Sequence record: NC_019500.1
DNA: 64,000 nt
DNA from: Escherichia phage Bp7
Strand: one strand, 5' to 3'
A program made the translations under genes and the position numbers. Positions 562-43,926 of the stretch are shown one piece after another. A model generated the notes under the pieces. It was not told where the DNA came from. It ran no database searches and saw only the letters and a program-made list of their open reading frames with translations. Within the stretch, counting starts at the first letter, position 1; every line of letters begins with the position of its first letter.

Positions 562-1236
562 ATGTCTACAGTTTTTAATACTACCCCAGTTGATGTTTTA
601 GTCGAGCCGATGTTCTTTGGTTCAGGATTAGGTATCGCCCGTTATGATATCCAACGTCATAAAGTGTTCGAAGAGCTTTGTGAAAAGCAACTATCATTTT
701 TCTGGCGTCCAGAGGAAGTTAACTTGATGATGGACTCTGCGCAGTTAATAAGCTTCCAGAGTTCCAACAAAATATATTTACCAATAACTTGAAATATCAG
801 TCGCTTTTGGACAGTATTCAGGGCCGGGCTCCTTCTGCTGCACTCCAAGCCTTGATTTCTGACCCTAGCCTTGATACATGGGTGGCAACATGGACCTTTA
901 GTGAAACTATTCACTCGCGTTCGTATACCCATATCATGCGTAACCTCTATACAGACCCATCTAAGGTATTTGATGAAATTCTGTTAGATGACGCTATCAT
1001 GAAGCGCGCTGAATCCATTGGTCGTTATTATGATGACGTTATTGAGAAAACTAGATATTGGCAGAATGCTAAAGCTGATATTGAGTACCAAAAAGAAATT
1101 AACGCAGACGAAGATGATATTGAAGATGCCATAGAGCATGAGATGTATTGGAAACGTGAACTGATGCGTTCTCTTTATCTCTGTTTGCATGTTATCAATG
1201 CCTTAGAAGCTATTCGTTTTTATGTATCTTTTGCGT
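562..1236 (+). CDS. nrdB: Ribonucleotide reductase small subunit NrdB, exon 1 (apparent 1-nt frameshift near 745)
   Basis: [12 protein letters not shown]...EEVNLMMD in frame 1 then continues in frame 3 (...[21 protein letters not shown]...[12 protein letters not shown]); matches T4/E. coli NrdB; exon ends at T1236. Confidence 0.8.
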
Positions 1237-1310
1237 AAAATGCGCCTTTAAACGGTAACGTTTATCGAAAACTCCTTTAATTGCTGGAAAGTCCTTTATA
1301 GGAAAACTAG

Positions 1311-1337
1311 CAGCCAAGGTTTTGCTTGCACCTTTAA
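1311..1337 (+). promoter_or_regulatory. Putative middle promoter (MotA box TTTGCTTGCA, 11 nt, TATAAT) inside intron upstream of endonuclease ORF
   Basis: Sequence motif match to T4 middle promoter consensus. Confidence 0.45.
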
Positions 1338-1381
1338 TTAGTATAATATAAATATGATTATACTTTTAAGAGGATGCACAA

Positions 1382-2188
1382 TTGAACTATAGAAAAATTT
1401 GGATAGATGCTAACGGACCTATACCTAAAGATTCTGATGGAAGAACATACGAAATCCATCATAAAGACGGTAACCGTGAAAATAATGATTTAGATAATTT
1501 GATGTGCCTTTCTATACAGGAACATTATGATATACATTTAGCTCAAAAAGATTACCAGGCTTGTCATGCTATAAAGCTTAGAATGAAATATTCTCCTGAA
1601 GAAATTTCTGAATTAGCTTCTAAAGCCGCAAAATCTAGAGAAATCCAGATTTTTAATATCCCTGAAGTACGAGCTAAAAATATTGCCTCTATTAAATCTA
1701 AGATAGAAAATGGTACATTTCATCTTTTAGACGGTGAAATACAGCGTAAATCTAATTTAAATAGAGTTGCATTAGGTATACATAATTTCTCTAGAGGAGC
1801 CCATGCAAAAGTTAAAGAACGCAATATTGCAGCTATAAAAGAAGGTACTCATGTATTTTGCGGTGGTAAAATGCAGTCAGAAACTCAATCAAAACGGGTA
1901 AATGACGGTTCACATCATTTCTTGTCAGAAGACCATAAGAAAAGAACATCAGCAAAAACATTAGAAATGGTTAAGAACGGGACCCATCCTGCACAAAAAG
2001 AAATCACATGTGATTTCTGCGGTCACATTGGTAAAGGTCCTGGATTTTATCTAAAACATAATGACAGATGTAAATTAAATCCAAATAGAATTCAATTGAA
2101 TTGTCCATATTGTGATAAGAAAGATTTATCACCATCAACATATAAACGATGGCACGGCGACAATTGCAAAGCAAGGTTCAACGACTAG
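1382..2188 (+). CDS. Intron-encoded HNH homing endonuclease (I-TevIII-like), TTG start
   Basis: 268 aa; EIHHKDGNRENNDLDNLMCLSIQEHYDIH HNH motif; C-terminal Cys/His zinc-finger-like pairs; RBS aagagga upstream of TTG. Confidence 0.75.
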   Translation: MNYRKIWIDANGPIPKDSDGRTYEIHHKDGNRENNDLDNLMCLSIQEHYDIHLAQKDYQACHAIKLRMKYSPEEISELASKAAKSREIQIFNIPEVRAKNIASIKSKIENGTFHLLDGEIQRKSNLNRVALGIHNFSRGAHAKVKERNIAAIKEGTHVFCGGKMQSETQSKRVNDGSHHFLSEDHKKRTSAKTLEMVKNGTHPAQKEITCDFCGHIGKGPGFYLKHNDRCKLNPNRIQLNCPYCDKKDLSPSTYKRWHGDNCKARFND

Positions 2189-2324
2189 TCTTCGGACGTA
2201 GGGTCAAGCGACTCGAAATGGGGAGAATCCCTCTGGGATTGTGATATAGTCTGGTCTGCATAGTAATATGTAGCAGTTCATAAGAGAACGGGTTGAGAAT
2301 TAGCGAGCTCAATCGAACATAACG

Positions 2325-2827
2325 GTACCTTTAACTTCCATAAGAACATGGAAATCATGGAAGGTAATGCTAAGATTATGAAGTTCATTGCACGTGATGA
2401 ACAGCTCCACCTTAAAGGCACCCAGTACATTATTCGTCAGCTCCAACTTGGTACTGATGGCGACGAATGGGTTAAAATTGCTCAAGAGTGCGAACAAGAA
2501 GCAGTTGATATTTTCATGGAAGTTAACCGTCAAGAAAAAGAATGGGCCGCTCACCTGTTCAAAGATGGTACTTGCCCTGGATTAAATACTCAGAACATGG
2601 GTGCTTTTGTCGATTACCTGACAGTTTCTCGTATGAAGCAATGTGGCTTACCGTGTCCTATTACTGATGCTCCTACTCGCCATCCTTATCCTTGGATTCG
2701 CGAATACCTGAACTCTGATGCTGTACAGGCTGCTCCTCAGGAAGTGGAAATCAGTTCTTACCTTGTAGCACAAATTGATAACGATGTTGATGAAAAAGTA
2801 ATGGCATCGTACAAGAAATATTTTTAA
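2325..2827 (+). CDS. nrdB: Ribonucleotide reductase small subunit NrdB, exon 2
   Basis: TFNFHKNMEIMEGNAKIMKFIARDEQLHLKGTQ... to C-terminus; matches NrdB iron-ligand region. Confidence 0.8.
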
Positions 2828-28175: not shown

Positions 28176-28403
28176 TTAGAAATCTTCCTCTTCCTCGTCG
28201 TCCATCGACTCCAATTCAGCTCTCTTACCAGCCAATGCATCACGCACGCTAATATCATCCGAATCACGAAGTTCGGCTTCCTTACTACGAGTTTTGTAAT
28301 ACTTTTCCAATTCCTTCAGACCATCCATAGTCTGACAAGAACCAATTTTAGCCATGAAGCTTTCAATAGATGCTTCCTGAATAACTTCTTTAAAGGTTTT
28401 CAT
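28176..28403 (-). CDS. uvsW.1: UvsW.1
   Basis: 75 aa acidic C-terminus, located downstream of uvsW as in T4. Confidence 0.6.
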   Translation of the reverse strand: MKTFKEVIQEASIESFMAKIGSCQTMDGLKELEKYYKTRSKEAELRDSDDISVRDALAGKRAELESMDDEEEEDF

Positions 28404-29182
28404 AATATTTCCTCGAAAAATTTGGTAACCATTTTACCGTAATGCACATTAGGATAACCGGCTTTAATGGCTTCTTTTGTAAATTTACCAACTTTAAGCT
28501 TTCCTGTATTTATCCAAAGCTCTTTAAGCTCATCATACATTAACCAGTGTGGATATTTCTTAGCCAAAGTAGCTTGCCAATTTTTAGAATGGTCCTCAGA
28601 CCTAAACGATTTCTTTACACCTTTATTGGCTTTGCCAGCTTTTGAACACGTTTCATAATCTCCGGCTTTAATAGGTGTAAATCCTTTCATTGCTTTAGAC
28701 CTTTTGGCTATGGTCTCTTTGGATTGCTTGGAGCCTTTATTTTTGGTCCAAGCCTTTTCTAAAGCTTTTAATTTGGCTTCTGTTAATCCAACTTTAGCCA
28801 TAGCTTTTCGGTGTATTTCTCTTCGTTCATCAGTCCATTCATAAGAACCGTTTGTATTACCAATCATGGCTTCGCTTATTAATCTAGAAGCATTTTCTTT
28901 TAAAATGGAAATAGACCTAGAGCTTATCTCATTTAATCTTTTGCCACATGTCATACCAAATGCGGCACGCCATAATTTTCCACCTTGAGCTTTAGCCAAG
29001 ATTATATGGCCCAAAATATGTTCCCTAATAGTCAATGCAACTAAATTGTTAGGGTCATCGGAACCACCTATCGACTTAGGAATAATATGATGAATTTCGA
29101 TTTTACAGGGCGCAGTAGCTTTGGTCCATCCTCTGGACCTAGCATTCTCTATTAAATCATCGTAAATTTTCTGATAATTCAA
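28400..29182 (-). CDS. HNH homing endonuclease (free-standing, between uvsW and uvsW.1)
   Basis: 260 aa; HHIIPKSIGGSDDPNNLVALTIREH HNH motif; overlapping start/stop with neighbours. Confidence 0.75.
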   Translation of the reverse strand: MNYQKIYDDLIENARSRGWTKATAPCKIEIHHIIPKSIGGSDDPNNLVALTIREHILGHIILAKAQGGKLWRAAFGMTCGKRLNEISSRSISILKENASRLISEAMIGNTNGSYEWTDERREIHRKAMAKVGLTEAKLKALEKAWTKNKGSKQSKETIAKRSKAMKGFTPIKAGDYETCSKAGKANKGVKKSFRSEDHSKNWQATLAKKYPHWLMYDELKELWINTGKLKVGKFTKEAIKAGYPNVHYGKMVTKFFEEIL

Positions 29183-30682
29183 AGCTGCACCTCTTTCATA
29201 ACATAATTAAATTTCTCGTCGGCGTATCGTTGTATACGTTCCAATCCATGTTTCAGGCAATAATTTAAATGAACATATTTCTTTTTAGAATCTTTAGATT
29301 TAGGGCGGACTCCCATATCATCCACGAGGTCCCAGACTTGGGCCACTTGTTTGCTATCGTGCTTACGTAGAACACGCCCAATTGTTTGCAGAACAATGAT
29401 TTTAGATTTTACGCCGTGAGCAAATACAACGTGGTGAAGGTTCTTAACGGAAATACCAGTAGAGAACACACCATAACTTGCCACAACAATAATACCCTTA
29501 CCATTTTCCGCCATTACTTTCAGAGCATTACGCGTTTCGGTATTAACTTCACCTGATACGTAATAAACTTCTTTATGTTGCTCTTTAACCATTTCAAAAA
29601 GAGTTTTACCGTGTTCGATGTTTTTAAACATCAGGAATACGTTCTCTTCTTTCTTAGCGAGTTTAACAGCTAAATTAGCAACCCATTTATTACGACGAGT
29701 AGCCTTAGTAATGACCTTGATTTCTGATTGGTAATCTTTACCTTTCATCTTAACAGTGAATTCGTCTGGGTATCGAAGGAAAATACTGTTGATTTTAAGG
29801 TCGGTAACCTGTCCTTCTTCCATTAACTGGGAAGTGGATACCGGCTTAAACACATCACCAAACAAACCCATATATTGCATTAAATTAGCTTTACCATCTT
29901 TTAAAGAACCAGACAAACCGAATTTAAACATACAGTTGGTTAGGCCTTCGATGATAGTAGAAATAGATTTACCTGTAGCCAAATGGCATTCGTCGTTCAT
30001 AAACATACCGAACTGAGCAAACCATTCTTTAGGTTGCTTGATAGCAGTTTGATAAGTTGAAACGTAAATCATTGCATCAGAATCACGAGCAGTACCTGAA
30101 CGAATACCAAGCATTGCTGCTTTAGGGAACAATCGATAATCGATGAAGTCATTAATCATCTGGTCGACAAGTGCAGTAGTAGGAACCAGAATAAGGATTT
30201 TACCTTCATAGTTCTCAACGTAATATCGACTCAGGAGCGCCTGGATTAATGATTTACCTGCGGATGTAGGTAAATTCAGAATTGCACGACGTTTTGTCAG
30301 GCCGTTGTATACGGCTTCATTCTGATACCAATGAGGCTCAATCTTGGTAGACCCTGAATAAATTTCTTGAGAAGCTACCCATGAATCAAAATCTTCACGA
30401 GAAATATCTTCCTGTTCAAGAATACGCGGGTCAATCCACAGAGAATATTCAAATTGTTCAGCGAACTTTTTAATTTGAGGGACAAGTCCATAAGGGCAAG
30501 TTTACGGCAGTTACGTAATCTAGAAGAAGAAGACTTCCATCCCATTGCCCATAACGAAATTTAGGGTTGAATTTATATCCATCGGCTTCAAAGCTAAAAT
30601 AGTCTCTGAGTTCGTAGAATGTGGATTCATCACACTCAATACGAACATGACTAAAATTATCGAAATGTACTTGAATTTGCAT
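29179..30682 (-). CDS. uvsW: DNA/RNA helicase UvsW (apparent 1-nt frameshift near 30490)
   Basis: N-terminus MQIQVHFDNFSHVRIECDESTFYELRDYFSFEADGYKFNPKFRYGQWDG; after frame change continues ...PYGLVPQIKKF...LPTSAGKS...DECH...QTIGRVLR; matches T4 UvsW in two frames. Confidence 0.8.
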
Positions 30683-32291: not shown

Positions 32292-32581
32292 CATTAAAGT
32301 ACAAAATTCCTGTTTACAAGGACTCTAGTCTATGTTAAGATGGGTTTACCAACTCAACGAGAGAATTGTTATGGATAAGGTTAAAGTACATTTTTTACAC
32401 GAATCCGGGTTGAATTTTATAGAAATTGCTAAAAAAATGGGCGGGACCGCTAAGGATATGGCCAAAGCATGGGTTGATGTAGAACAAGCCTAGAGCCAAA
32501 TTTAAAGCGAAAGAAAAGGTTGTTTATCGTAAAAGATTGAACAACAAGGTTCGGCGCAAAGCGCGTTCTGGTTCAAAGTAA

Positions 32582-40201: not shown

Positions 40202-40446
40202 TATTCGTCGTCCTCGTCATCATCCGCATCGTCAGATTCTTTTTTGTCTTTCTTATCTGCTTTATCGGATTTTTCGTCGTCTTCGTCATCTTCGTCAGCT
40301 TCTTCGCCTTCAATCATAACGGAGCGAGCAATTTCTGCTTTACGGGCTTCAATCAAAGCGGTTACTCGAGATTCGATAAGCGGGGCTGCTGCTTTACGAA
40401 CTGCTACGAGGTCGTTTGATTTAATAGCTTCGATTAAATCTTCCAT
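40201..40446 (-). CDS. 67: Prohead core protein gp67
   Basis: 81 aa with poly-acidic C-terminus; synteny. Confidence 0.75.
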
Positions 40447-42019
40447 TAGAAATCCTCTTCTTCTTCATCTGGGTTTTGGAAACGAGCCTCTTTAGACTCT
40501 TCTTCAATTTGCTTAGCTTCTTGATTAATTTCTTCGTCGGTCATTTGGAGGAAATCTTTCATAGCCGTTTGATGTGAAATGTACTTACCAATAAATGGTT
40601 CAGCCATCGTTAGCATATTGATTCTGCGTTCCATGATTTCAGCATCTTTCATTTCACTGAAATAGCTATCACGGTTAAACGTAACTTTAATATTATTTAT
40701 TTCCTTTTCCCACTCATCTTCTGTAATAATCTTTTTAAGAATGAGGTTTGTTTTTAACGGGTCTAGGAAAATTTCTTCAAATTTGTTTTGTAGTTGACGA
40801 ATCCATTTAGAGAATTTTAATTCGTCACGAGTGATTGCTGTACCGGCATCAAACATAACACCAGAATTAGACTCGCTAGGGATACGTGATTCAGGAACAC
40901 GCAACGCACGGTAAAGTGCTGTGCGGAAATAAAGAACGTCATCCATATCACTCATACCAGTAGCACCTGGCATTGTATCAACTTCTGTTACCGCTTTACC
41001 ATCACGACGTTGCAACCAATAGTCTTCAGTCATGGACATATTGTGTTGTTGGTTTTTAATTTTACCTGTCGAAGCATCATACACCACACGGTTTTTCATC
41101 GTGTTCATGATATGTTGCATTTGTGCTGCAGCCTTACGTGAAGGCATATTACCTGTATCGATATAAAACACACGACGGTCAGGAGCACGTGTAATACGGT
41201 AGATGACCATTGCGTCTTCCATCAATTTAAGCTGGTTTGCAGGCTTAATAGCACGTTGCAAATAGCCAATGATGTTTTTACCACAACAATCTAATAATCC
41301 AGAATGAGCATAAACCACTGCAGCACGAGGAATTTTAACTTTAGTCCCGGCTGAATAAATGCGTCCATCTGCGCAATAGCTTTCATGACCTGTGTCGTAA
41401 ACGAAAAACTCGCGATATCCGTCTACAACTTTAACGCCATCTTCCATACGTGTAACGATTTCACGAATATATTGGACTTGGCGTGGGTCTAAGCGACGAA
41501 GCTCTTGTACGCCATCTTTCATTTTTTTAGGGTTTATAATTTTATGAAAGAAAATTCTTGAGTCTACATACCAGCGTTGGAAATGGTCAGTGCCTTTACG
41601 TTGGAAATTTAAAAGGTTTAAAACTTCACTGAATTCGGCCAAGATTTTATCTTTAATTGCTTGACTAAATTCTGTCCCGTCTAAATTCAATGCAACTACT
41701 TCTTTATCATCTCATAGACAATAGCGTCAGACACAATTTCCTGTACGGCGTTGTCGACTTCATAGTTGTTCATTAAATTACGGTAGGTATCAATAAGTTC
41801 CCTGGTATTTTTAACTTCAGGCTCATTACTACCAAACATCTGTTGCATAAGAGCATTATAAGGAATATTTTGCTCTTGTGTCTCAATTTCGCGAGCGCCA
41901 TCATCAAGCTTAGGTGCGGTGACAGACTCTAAATTGTTATTAATTTGTTGTTTGAATTCTTTTTCGTCTTCATTAGCCCATGGCTTAAGAAAACTTAATA
42001 TTGTATTAAAGTTTGCCAT
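40446..42019 (-). CDS. 20: Portal vertex protein gp20 (apparent 1-nt frameshift near 41711)
   Basis: Two adjacent ORFs (41696..42019 and 40446..41690) together match T4 gp20 end to end; break falls between ...[10 protein letters not shown] and [11 protein letters not shown]. Confidence 0.85.
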
Positions 42020-42076: not shown

Positions 42077-42658
42077 TCATTCATTTTCATGTTTGTGATA
42101 ACGTGTTATAGCCGAACGAGTTGATTCAACACCACAGATAGGGCAAATCATCCTTGGCTGATTAATCTTTTTGCCTTTAGCCGGATGTTCTTTACCAAAC
42201 ATCGGATTACCTTCACCAGACATAGCTTTGGCTTGGTCTGGTCGCTTACGTCCTTTTAGAGCTTTAGAATGTTCAGGCCTCTTTTTACCTAACCTACAAT
42301 CTCTTTGTAGCTGTTTGGCATGTTCACTCATTGGAATCCCTTTACGAGACATTCCAAAGAACCCGTCAGGCTGAGCTAATGACATATTTATATAGTTTTT
42401 AGATTTAACTACATTATACTTTATTTGAAGCTCTTTCTCAGCTATACGAGCTTCTTTATCGGTTTCAAATAAAGATAAAATTCTGGTTTTGAAAAGGTGC
42501 GGATTTTCTTTACGTTCTAGATTCCAAATCTTTTTATATGCTTGGGATAATACAGAACCATTATATCCTTCTTTGAGAATCCTTTCAACGTATGTTGAGC
42601 CAATATAACGACGGGGTAGTTTAGACCCCGTGTATATGGTTAAGTAAGTACAATACAT
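42077..42658 (-). CDS. GIY-YIG homing endonuclease (Seg-like), free-standing between genes 19 and 20
   Basis: 193 aa; N-terminal TYLTIYTGS...RRYIGST GIY-YIG motif; Lys/Arg-rich DNA-binding C-terminus. Confidence 0.7.
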   Translation of the reverse strand: MYCTYLTIYTGSKLPRRYIGSTYVERILKEGYNGSVLSQAYKKIWNLERKENPHLFKTRILSLFETDKEARIAEKELQIKYNVVKSKNYINMSLAQPDGFFGMSRKGIPMSEHAKQLQRDCRLGKKRPEHSKALKGRKRPDQAKAMSGEGNPMFGKEHPAKGKKINQPRMICPICGVESTRSAITRYHKHENE

Positions 42659-43254: not shown

Positions 43255-43926
43255 TCATGATAGTTTTCCATTTGGTTGTTTTGATTCAATCATATTTATA
43301 AGAGTTTTTAAGCTCATCCCACAGCCATCTGATTTGGAAAGATTTTCTTCCCACGGAATAATTTGCAAGTTACAAATATGGCCTATATGTTCTGCGGGTA
43401 TTTTATTATCATAACCAAATTTCTTAGATATTATATGGTCTAATTGATAAGCACCTTTGACTCCGCACTTGCCTATTTTAGTAAAATTCTTCATTTTACT
43501 TATTTCATTTCTATATTTATACTGATGACGCTTGACATCCATACAATATTTATGATATTTTTTCTTATCAATCCAGTGTTCTTTAGATTTGAGACCTTTA
43601 CCTGTTCTATTTTTGGAAATTTTAGGCCCTTTGGTTTTACGGATTTTTATGCCTTCATCAGAATTCCAATATTCTTTTCTTGTTTCTGAATAGACTTCCC
43701 AGCGATGTTCTTTACAGAACTTAGAATTTGTTTCATTAAGACGTCCTTTTGTTACAGTATAATAAGTGCCACATTTATCACATTTACATGTAACAGCAAT
43801 TTTTCCAGGACAATCTTCTAATTTTATTAAATGAGAGCTTCCACTTTTAACTTGATATCCGAGATTTTTAAAAGCAGAAACATTGCGATTCGTTATAGGT
43901 ATTTCAAATAGAGTATTAGTAATCAT
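43255..43926 (-). CDS. HNH homing endonuclease, free-standing between genes 18 and 19
   Basis: 223 aa; QLDHIISKKFGYDNKIPAEHIGHICNLQIIPWEENLSK HNH motif; Cys-rich N-terminus. Confidence 0.7.
   Translation of the reverse strand: MITNTLFEIPITNRNVSAFKNLGYQVKSGSSHLIKLEDCPGKIAVTCKCDKCGTYYTVTKGRLNETNSKFCKEHRWEVYSETRKEYWNSDEGIKIRKTKGPKISKNRTGKGLKSKEHWIDKKKYHKYCMDVKRHQYKYRNEISKMKNFTKIGKCGVKGAYQLDHIISKKFGYDNKIPAEHIGHICNLQIIPWEENLSKSDGCGMSLKTLINMIESKQPNGKLS

What the first reader, a model, noticed from the sequence alone, without database searches (positions are those of the whole stretch)
41690..41720. Apparent -1 frameshift in the essential portal gene 20
Portal protein is encoded in two abutting ORFs: the N-terminal 107 aa end ...[14 protein letters not shown], and the rest starts at ...LNLDGTEF. 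T4 gp20 reads ...[15 protein letters not shown] through this point; inserting one G into TATGAGATGAT (to TATGAGGATGAT) restores it. Portal is indispensable, so a true frameshift would have to be read through by ribosomal slippage. With two further single-base indels in this window, sequencing error is the most parsimonious explanation.
Basis: partly seen in the sequence, partly recalled or inferred. Interest (0 to 1): 0.5.

Follow-up and report, generated by a model that had tools for sequence, protein, structure and literature searches.

The report
Likely sequencing error splitting portal gene
The portal gene of phage Bp7 is split in two by one missing base that no related phage lacks, and the evidence points to an error in the deposited sequence, not an unusual way of reading the gene.

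Summary
The window is from Escherichia phage Bp7, a T4-like Dhakavirus. Gene 20 (portal, minus strand, 42019..40446) is 1574 nt; three close relatives have 1575 nt. One G of GAG-GAT is missing (a single C at + strand 41711 where relatives have CC). This gives a 107-aa N-terminal ORF and a 414-aa remainder in the -1 frame, both annotated separately in the Bp7 record.

The deletion is private to this record. None of 36 phage records sharing the junction DNA has it, and 1551 of 1552 T4-type records encode the junction peptide almost in full. All 7-15 nucleotide differences downstream of the break are synonymous in the gp20 frame.

The 16-nt frame overlap holds only a bare A_AAG tetramer, with no heptamer, homopolymer run or significant downstream structure. 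Such tetramers shift at background level (about 0.15%) without a pseudoknot.

Three other genes in the window (nrdB, uvsW, 24.3) also carry frame-breaking indels found in no relative. The matching 24-kb block of three relatives has none.

Only resequencing can prove it. Interest is low.

The parts
41696..42019 (-). 5' fragment of gene 20 (portal): 107 codons plus TAG. The last four residues (MIKK) are out-of-frame read-through after the missing base.
   Evidence: ORF list. Exact match to Bp7 protein AEN93953.1, a singleton cluster. Pfam PF07230 Portal_T4 profile positions 2-32, E 9e-7.
41711..41711 (-). Site of the lesion: a single C (+ strand), i.e. a single G on the coding strand, where all relatives have two (GAG-GAT, Glu103-Asp104).
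   Evidence: Alignment A1. The repair restores 1575 nt / 524 codons. None of 36 records sharing the 71-nt junction has the deletion.
41696..41711 (-). 16-nt overlap GATGATAAAGAAGTAG between the -1-frame stop (TGA, 41714-41712) and the 0-frame stop (TAG, 41698-41696). This is the only place where a ribosome could change frame productively.
   Evidence: Frame enumeration.
41702..41705 (-). A_AAG tetramer, the only -1 slippery motif in the overlap. No X_XXY_YYZ heptamer and no A/T run of 5 or more.
   Evidence: No significant downstream RNA structure, z = -0.44. Tetramers without a pseudoknot shift at about 0.15%, which is background (PMC4066793).
40446..41690 (-). 3' part of gene 20 as annotated (414 aa from TTG). 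The gp20 frame is in fact open from 41711.
   Evidence: Exact match to Bp7 AEN93952.1; every other listed member of its 90% cluster is 524 aa. Pfam PF07230 profile positions 41-433, E 4e-177. 100% amino-acid identity to QL01 residues 104-524.
744..745 (+). Private 1-nt deletion in nrdB exon 1 (CAG-TTAAT against CAATTTAAT), splitting it into ORFs 562-792 and 789-1238.
   Evidence: tblastn frame change, ORFs, alignment with QL01 and vB_EcoM_F1.
30496..30514 (-). Private patch in uvsW: 7 extra bases in two blocks (5 + 2) with clustered substitutions. It breaks the frame after about codon 56.
   Evidence: In the ten best of 252 matching records the 141-nt query spans only 134 nt, at no more than 90.8% identity.
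32491..32491 (+). Private 1-nt insertion in gene 24.3 (GCCTAGAGCC against GCC-AAGGCC), creating an in-frame TAG after codon 40 of 69.
   Evidence: None of 29 records sharing the 71-nt segment has the insertion.

Best explanation
The window is part of the deposited genome of Escherichia phage Bp7 (HQ829472 / NC_019500). The split portal gene is most likely an error in that record: one G of a GG dinucleotide was lost during base-calling, assembly or editing, or through sequencing of a mutated clone. The living phage then encodes an ordinary uninterrupted 524-aa T4-type portal protein (gp20). No special decoding takes place. Shown: the missing base, its uniqueness to this record, the intact frame everywhere else, the other private frame breaks in the same record, and the lack of recoding signals. 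Inferred: that the phage's real DNA carries the G.
For: Identity of the record: both fragments match Bp7-only proteins exactly (AEN93953.1, 107 aa, a singleton cluster; AEN93952.1, 414 aa), each seen on one 168,066-bp contig. Every other listed member of the 90% cluster is 524 aa.

Private lesion: QL01, IME540 and vB_EcoM_005 have the G and a 1575-nt CDS. None of 36 phage records with the 71-nt junction shares the deletion. All 4 viral-contig matches are the intact form and the deleted form has none. Of 1552 T4-type records, 1551 encode at least 80% of the 70-aa junction peptide, and all 40 sampled rows are one ungapped piece.

Selection: all 7 (QL01, IME540) or 15 (vB_EcoM_005) nucleotide differences downstream of the break are synonymous in the gp20 frame, with 100% amino-acid identity over residues 104-524.

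Record quality: the same 64 kb holds three more private frame-breaking indels, in nrdB, uvsW and 24.3. For 22 genes of the matching 24-kb block, IME540, WG01 and JS98 show no frame break.

No recoding apparatus: the overlap is 16 nt, with only an A_AAG tetramer, no heptamer and no homopolymer run. Downstream folding is no better than shuffles, z -0.44. Such tetramers give about 0.15%, against 0.11% background, without a pseudoknot (PMC4066793).

Biology: gp20 is one of three essential T4 capsid proteins (PMC3012670). [quoted passage not shown] Bp7 is nonetheless a propagated laboratory phage with a measured host range (PMC10987938).
Against: No reads or resequencing data could be examined. The repaired Bp7 protein is not in the 15-billion-protein collection, and the 107-aa fragment is not on any other contig. 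There is therefore no independent sequence of this exact phage.

The lost base lies in a GG dinucleotide, not a long homopolymer, so it is not the classic pyrosequencing error.

The three other broken genes are, from my own knowledge of T4, dispensable in the laboratory. They could be real mutations, in which case they do not prove poor sequence quality.

The Bp7 genome announcement (PMC3503090) is not held, so the sequencing method is unknown to me.
Confidence: 0.9

Rival explanations
1. The deletion is real, and full-length portal is made by low-level -1 ribosomal slippage of tRNA-Lys on A_AAG (41705-41702). The product would be gp20 with ...[14 protein letters not shown] in place of ...[14 protein letters not shown]. 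Only 12 copies are needed per virion, so a leaky 'savior' frameshift might sustain growth.
For: A_AAG is the most shift-prone Z_ZZN tetramer in E. coli (PMC4066793). It lies inside the 16-nt overlap, just before the 0-frame stop. Translational correction of problem indels by frameshifting is a recognised phenomenon (abstract of PMC5009743).
Against: Without a strong pseudoknot, tetramers gave about 0.15% against 0.11% background; A_AAG reached 5.6% only with the IS3 pseudoknot. No significant downstream structure is present (z -0.44), nor a heptamer. The flanks are identical to intact relatives, so nothing has evolved to support recoding. The deletion is in no other record. The product would replace two aspartates that are shared by T4 and Dhakavirus. 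A drop of several hundred-fold in an essential head-assembly initiator is, by my inference, hard to reconcile with a routinely propagated phage.
Confidence: 0.03
2. The deletion is real and the portal is made as two polypeptides: residues 1-107, then a C-terminal piece re-initiated at TTG 41690, 5 nt after the TAG. The two would assemble non-covalently. This is what the GenBank annotation implies.
For: A TTG lies 5 nt downstream of the 0-frame stop in the gp20 frame, a geometry compatible with termination-reinitiation. The record annotates both pieces as 'portal vertex protein of head'.
Against: No Shine-Dalgarno-like sequence precedes the TTG; the upstream 20 nt read ATGATAAAGAAGTAGTTGCA. [quoted passage not shown] A single Pfam domain is split across the two ORFs, with profile positions 33-40 lost. 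No other T4-type phage sampled shows a break at this junction.
Confidence: 0.02
3. The deletion was really present in the DNA molecules sequenced but not in the viable phage. It could be a mutation selected during cloning of a poorly tolerated gene in E. coli, a PCR-introduced change, or a defective sub-population. This is an artefact of the template and not of base-calling.
For: T4 gp20 is described as extremely insoluble when expressed (PMC4493910). The uvsW lesion is a messy multi-base patch, unlike a simple miscall. The lost base is not in a long homopolymer.
Against: There is no information on how Bp7 was sequenced. The outcome for the biology is the same as the main explanation: the phage has an intact gene 20.
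Confidence: 0.05

Closest known systems
Bacteriophage T4 gp20 portal protein (PDB 6UZC, 3JA7; Pfam PF07230 Portal_T4)
   Same: The repaired ORF is 524 aa, the same length as T4 gp20, and aligns over residues 4-524 at E 1.1e-273. Gene order is that of T4-type phages: g19, (homing endonuclease), g20, g67, g68, g21, g22, g23.
   Different: In this record the ORF is interrupted at codon 103/104 by one missing base. In the three nearest relatives, and in 1551 of 1552 matching records, the junction is encoded almost in full.
Intact gene 20 of Dhakavirus relatives (QL01, IME540, vB_EcoM_005, WG01, JS98)
   Same: 98.9-99.4% nucleotide identity over the gene for QL01, IME540 and vB_EcoM_005. Amino-acid sequence is identical to QL01 from residue 104 to the end, with one difference (F22Y) upstream.
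   Different: Those genes are 1575 nt; here the gene is 1574 nt.
Bacterial programmed -1 frameshift sites (dnaX A_AAA_AAG; IS3/IS911 A_AAA_AAG or A_AAG with a pseudoknot)
   Same: An A_AAG tetramer sits just upstream of the 0-frame stop, and the downstream ORF is in the -1 frame.
   Different: There is no heptamer, no stimulatory pseudoknot or hairpin (z -0.44), no upstream Shine-Dalgarno-like element and no phylogenetic conservation. The expected efficiency is at background (PMC4066793).

Membership tests
T4-type portal protein (gp20; Pfam PF07230 Portal_T4) | Significant match to the Portal_T4 profile | tested here: met
   Fragment 1: 28.4 bits (cut-off 22.9), profile positions 2-32. Fragment 2: 589.7 bits, profile positions 41-433.
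T4-type portal protein (gp20; Pfam PF07230 Portal_T4) | End-to-end colinearity with solved T4 gp20 | tested here: met
   After adding one G, residues 4-524 align to residues 3-524 of 6uzc_E, E 1.1e-273.
T4-type portal protein (gp20; Pfam PF07230 Portal_T4) | Encoded as one uninterrupted ORF | tested here: not met
   As deposited, the gene is two ORFs in different frames. This is the anomaly under test, and it is judged to be an error in the record.
T4-type portal protein (gp20; Pfam PF07230 Portal_T4) | Conserved position in the head-gene cluster (g19 ... g20-g67-g68-g21-g22-g23) | tested here: met
   tblastn of QL01 proteins onto the window shows the colinear order, matching the annotations of relatives.
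Programmed -1 ribosomal frameshift site | Slippery heptamer X_XXY_YYZ in the frame overlap | tested here: not met
   None in or near the 16-nt overlap.
Programmed -1 ribosomal frameshift site | At least a Z_ZZN slippery tetramer | tested here: met
   A_AAG at 41705-41702. On its own this gives background-level shifting (PMC4066793).
Programmed -1 ribosomal frameshift site | Stimulatory downstream RNA structure or upstream Shine-Dalgarno-like element at the proper spacing | tested here: not met
   The 106 nt from the motif onward fold at -15.9 kcal/mol against a shuffle mean of -14.6 (z -0.44), and the only stable hairpin starts about 30 nt downstream. The upstream 25 nt lack a GGAGG-like element.
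Programmed -1 ribosomal frameshift site | Conservation of the two-frame arrangement among relatives | tested here: not met
   0 of 36 close records. Of 1552 T4-type records, 1551 cover at least 80% of the junction peptide, and all 40 sampled rows are one ungapped piece. Every other listed cluster member is 524 aa.
Programmed -1 ribosomal frameshift site | A demonstrated trans-frame protein product | not testable with these tools
   This needs mass spectrometry or a western blot of Bp7 virions, or a reporter assay.
Transcriptional slippage site | Long A or T homopolymer run at the junction | tested here: not met
   No run of 5 or more A/T, or 4 or more G/C, within 60 nt of the junction.
Sequence-record artefact | Lesion private to one deposit, in an essential gene of a viable organism, together with other private frame breaks | tested here: met
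   Essentiality: PMC3012670. Phage in laboratory use: PMC10987938.
Sequence-record artefact | Raw reads or independent resequencing show the intact base | not testable with these tools
   No reads are available. There is no second assembly of this phage in the collections.

The most novel reading that the evidence does not exclude
Phage Bp7 really carries a 1-nt deletion in its essential portal gene. It survives because a small fraction of ribosomes slip -1 on the bare A_AAG just before the stop, or re-initiate at the nearby TTG. That would show that a T4-type phage can tolerate a very large reduction, or a physical split, of its portal protein.
Probability: 0.04. Interest if true: 0.55.

Novelty: not a real feature. 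Interest (0 to 1): 0.06.

Why it matters
If it is an error, the value is only curatorial. The Bp7 record, which also exists as a RefSeq entry, carries a falsely split portal gene. At least three other probably false frame breaks (nrdB, uvsW, 24.3) sit in the same 64 kb. These spread as 'portal vertex protein' fragments of 107 and 414 aa in protein databases and can mislead automated annotation, pangenome work and recoding screens.

If it were real, it would be a natural case of an essential virion protein expressed through an unprogrammed frameshift or as a split protein. Nothing in the sequence supports that.

Tried and rejected
- **Same deletion elsewhere.** I searched for it in other sequences. 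The exact 34-mer has no match in viral contigs. An either-form pattern found 4 viral contigs, all intact, and nothing in metagenome contigs. None of 36 phage records has it. It is therefore not a circulating polymorphism.
- **Independent copy of Bp7.** The 107-aa fragment is on no other contig, and the repaired 524-aa protein is absent from the protein collection. No resequencing evidence points either way.
- **Bp7 primary papers.** I tried to read them for the sequencing method and growth data (PMC3754183, PMC7307102, PMC3503090 and one DOI). None is held. A search for 'Bp7' with 'frameshift' returned only unrelated human-genetics papers.
- **Programmed frameshift.** Rejected: no heptamer, structure or conservation.
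- **Transcriptional slippage.** Rejected: no homopolymer run.
- **Structured RNA or intron at the junction.** Rfam finds nothing at gathering score anywhere in the window. The flanks are identical to relatives with an intact gene.
- **Link to the homing-endonuclease ORF upstream of gene 20 (42077-42658).** Rejected: QL01, IME540 and vB_EcoM_005 carry the same ORF with an intact gene 20.
- **nrdB junction by megablast.** A 71-nt query found nothing because that region is too divergent. It was resolved by direct alignment instead.

Full report
**What is in the sequence.** The portal gene lies on the minus strand. ORF 41696..42019 (-) encodes 107 aa ending ...[17 protein letters not shown] 40446..41690 (-), read from a TTG, encodes 414 aa beginning MNLDGTEF. 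Together they span 1574 nt.

The closest phage records are QL01, vB_EcoM_IME540 and vB_EcoM_005, at 98.9-99.4% identity. Each annotates a single 1575-nt CDS here. A four-way alignment shows the only length difference: TATGA-GATGAT in the window against TATGAGGATGAT in the relatives. On the + strand this is a single C at 41711 where relatives have CC.

Adding the G gives a 524-codon ORF. It aligns over residues 4-524 with solved T4 gp20 (6UZC and others, E 1.1e-273), and T4 reads [15 protein letters not shown] at the same place. One Pfam Portal_T4 domain is split across the two ORFs, with profile positions 2-32 in the first and 41-433 in the second. The downstream piece is in the -1 frame. The two frames are both open over only 16 nt, GATGATAAAGAAGTAG, at 41711-41696.

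**Where the window comes from.** Both fragments are exact matches to proteins found only in Escherichia phage Bp7. AEN93953.1 (107 aa) is a singleton cluster, and AEN93952.1 is the 414-aa piece. Both are named 'portal vertex protein of head', and each was seen on one contig of 168,066 bp. Every other listed member of the 90%-identity cluster of the large fragment is 524 aa. The Bp7 record itself is not in the phage collection searched, where the best match is 99.4% identical.

**Is the deletion seen anywhere else?** No.
- Thirty-six phage records share the 71-nt junction segment. None matches at 99% or more, and each of the eight listed spans 72 nt for the 71 query bases.
- A pattern that accepts either form found four viral contigs, all with the extra base, and nothing in metagenome contigs. 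The deleted form alone found nothing.
- A 70-aa peptide spanning the junction matches 1552 phage records, from Dhakavirus to cyanophages. In 1551 of them one place covers at least 80% of the peptide. All 40 sampled rows are a single ungapped piece, 36 of them spanning the full 210 nt.

No lineage of T4-type phages shows two frames at this point.

**Selection on the downstream part.** Relative to QL01 and IME540 there are 7 nucleotide differences downstream of the break, and relative to vB_EcoM_005 there are 15. All are synonymous in the gp20 frame. Amino-acid identity to QL01 is 100% over residues 104-524. The downstream 421 codons have therefore evolved as a translated portal gene. The break is either extremely recent or not real.

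**Could the ribosome repair it?** The 16-nt overlap contains one -1 slippery motif, the tetramer A_AAG (41705-41702). It has no X_XXY_YYZ heptamer, no A/T run of five or more (which rules out transcriptional slippage), and no Shine-Dalgarno-like element in the 25 nt upstream.

The 106 nt from the motif onward fold no better than shuffled sequence: -15.9 kcal/mol against a mean of -14.6, z = -0.44. The only stable hairpin begins about 30 nt downstream, too far away to act as a stimulator.

In the systematic E. coli study of such motifs, tetramers without a pseudoknot gave 0.147%, against 0.112% for non-shifty controls. A_AAG reached 5.6% only with the strong IS3 pseudoknot (PMC4066793). The sequence on both sides is also identical to relatives whose gene is intact, so nothing has been shaped for recoding. 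A slip at A_AAG would in addition replace Asp104-Asp105, which are shared by T4 and Dhakavirus, with Met-Ile.

**Could it work as a split protein?** A TTG lies 5 nt after the TAG, but no ribosome-binding site precedes it. [quoted passage not shown]

gp20 is one of the three essential T4 capsid proteins (PMC3012670). Bp7 is a phage that its laboratory propagates and uses for host-range comparisons (PMC10987938). A broken portal is hard to reconcile with that.

**Quality of the rest of the window.** I mapped all QL01 proteins of the region onto the window by tblastn. Every gene is colinear and in a single frame except four:
- **Gene 20**, the subject of this finding.
- **nrdB exon 1.** One base is missing between 744 and 745: CAG-TTAAT against CAATTTAAT in both QL01 and a Tequatrovirus.
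- **uvsW.** Seven extra bases sit in two blocks, amid clustered substitutions, at 30496-30514. In the ten best of 252 matching records the query spans seven fewer bases, at no more than 90.8% identity.
- **Gene 24.3.** An extra T at 32491 creates an in-frame TAG. None of 29 records has it.

As a control, I mapped 22 QL01 proteins onto the matching 24-kb block of IME540, WG01 and JS98. No frame break appeared. The only deviations were truncation at the block's edge and length variation at the C-terminal ends of wac and gp67. So the window contains four private gene-disrupting indels in 64 kb, and they are not confined to long homopolymers. This pattern is typical of an under-polished early assembly.

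**Verdict.** The best explanation is an error in the deposited Bp7 sequence, or in the template that was sequenced. The phage has a normal 524-aa gp20. I put about 0.9 on a base-calling, assembly or editing error and about 0.05 more on a template artefact. Real-mutation scenarios, rescued by leaky slippage or re-initiation, together get about 0.05.

What I could not do is look at reads. No independent assembly of this phage exists in the collections, and the genome announcement is not held. An amplicon across 41600-41850 would settle it.

This is not a biological feature, and interest is low apart from flagging the record for correction.

Noticed in passing
window 562-2827 (+), break between 744 and 745: nrdB is interrupted twice. 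A roughly 1.1-kb insertion (about 1236-2326), absent from QL01, carries an I-TevIII-like 'intron-like DNA endonuclease' ORF at 1382-2188 (phrog_12324, E 1e-189). It is presumably the T4-type group I intron. Exon 1 also has a private 1-nt deletion that shifts the frame. Records that cover this whole nrdB segment, insertion included, are Tequatrovirus phages at about 87-88% identity.
   Followed up: partly
window 1-64000: Rfam at gathering thresholds reports no RNA family anywhere in the window, not even a group I intron at the nrdB insertion. The endonuclease ORF inside the insertion may prevent a match. I did not examine this further.
   Followed up: no
window 30496-30514 (-): uvsW carries a private, messy patch: 5 + 2 extra bases and about five substitutions within some 55 nt of an otherwise 97%-identical gene. 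It breaks the frame after codon 56. It looks like a low-quality stretch, not a natural variant.
   Followed up: yes
window 32491 (+): Gene 24.3 has a private extra T that creates an in-frame TAG after codon 40 of 69.
   Followed up: yes
window 28400-29182 (-): A 260-aa HNH-type homing endonuclease ORF (phrog_655, E 3e-47) sits between uvsW and uvsW.1. QL01 has no such insertion there.
   Followed up: partly
window 42077-42658 (-): A 193-aa homing-endonuclease ORF (phrog_314, E 1e-29; no Pfam hit) lies between genes 19 and 20. It is 100% identical to QL01's copy at the protein level. An ORF of the same size and position is annotated in IME540 and vB_EcoM_005. It is absent from WG01 and JS98. 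It is not linked to the gene 20 lesion.
   Followed up: partly
window 43255-43926 (-): The slot between gene 18 and gene 19 is variable. Here it holds a 223-aa ORF of unknown function (phrog_5104, E 6e-66; no Pfam hit), whereas QL01 has an unrelated 206-aa ORF.
   Followed up: no
window ~6060, ~9290, 19722/19734, 548, 10638: Further single-base length differences relative to QL01. One is near the 3' end of gene 31.2 (9290). One is near the end of the ORF after pseT (6060). A compensating -1/+1 pair lies 12 nt apart near the end of an alt paralogue (19722/19734). Two are A-run length differences in intergenic DNA (548, 10638). They were compared with QL01 only.
   Followed up: no
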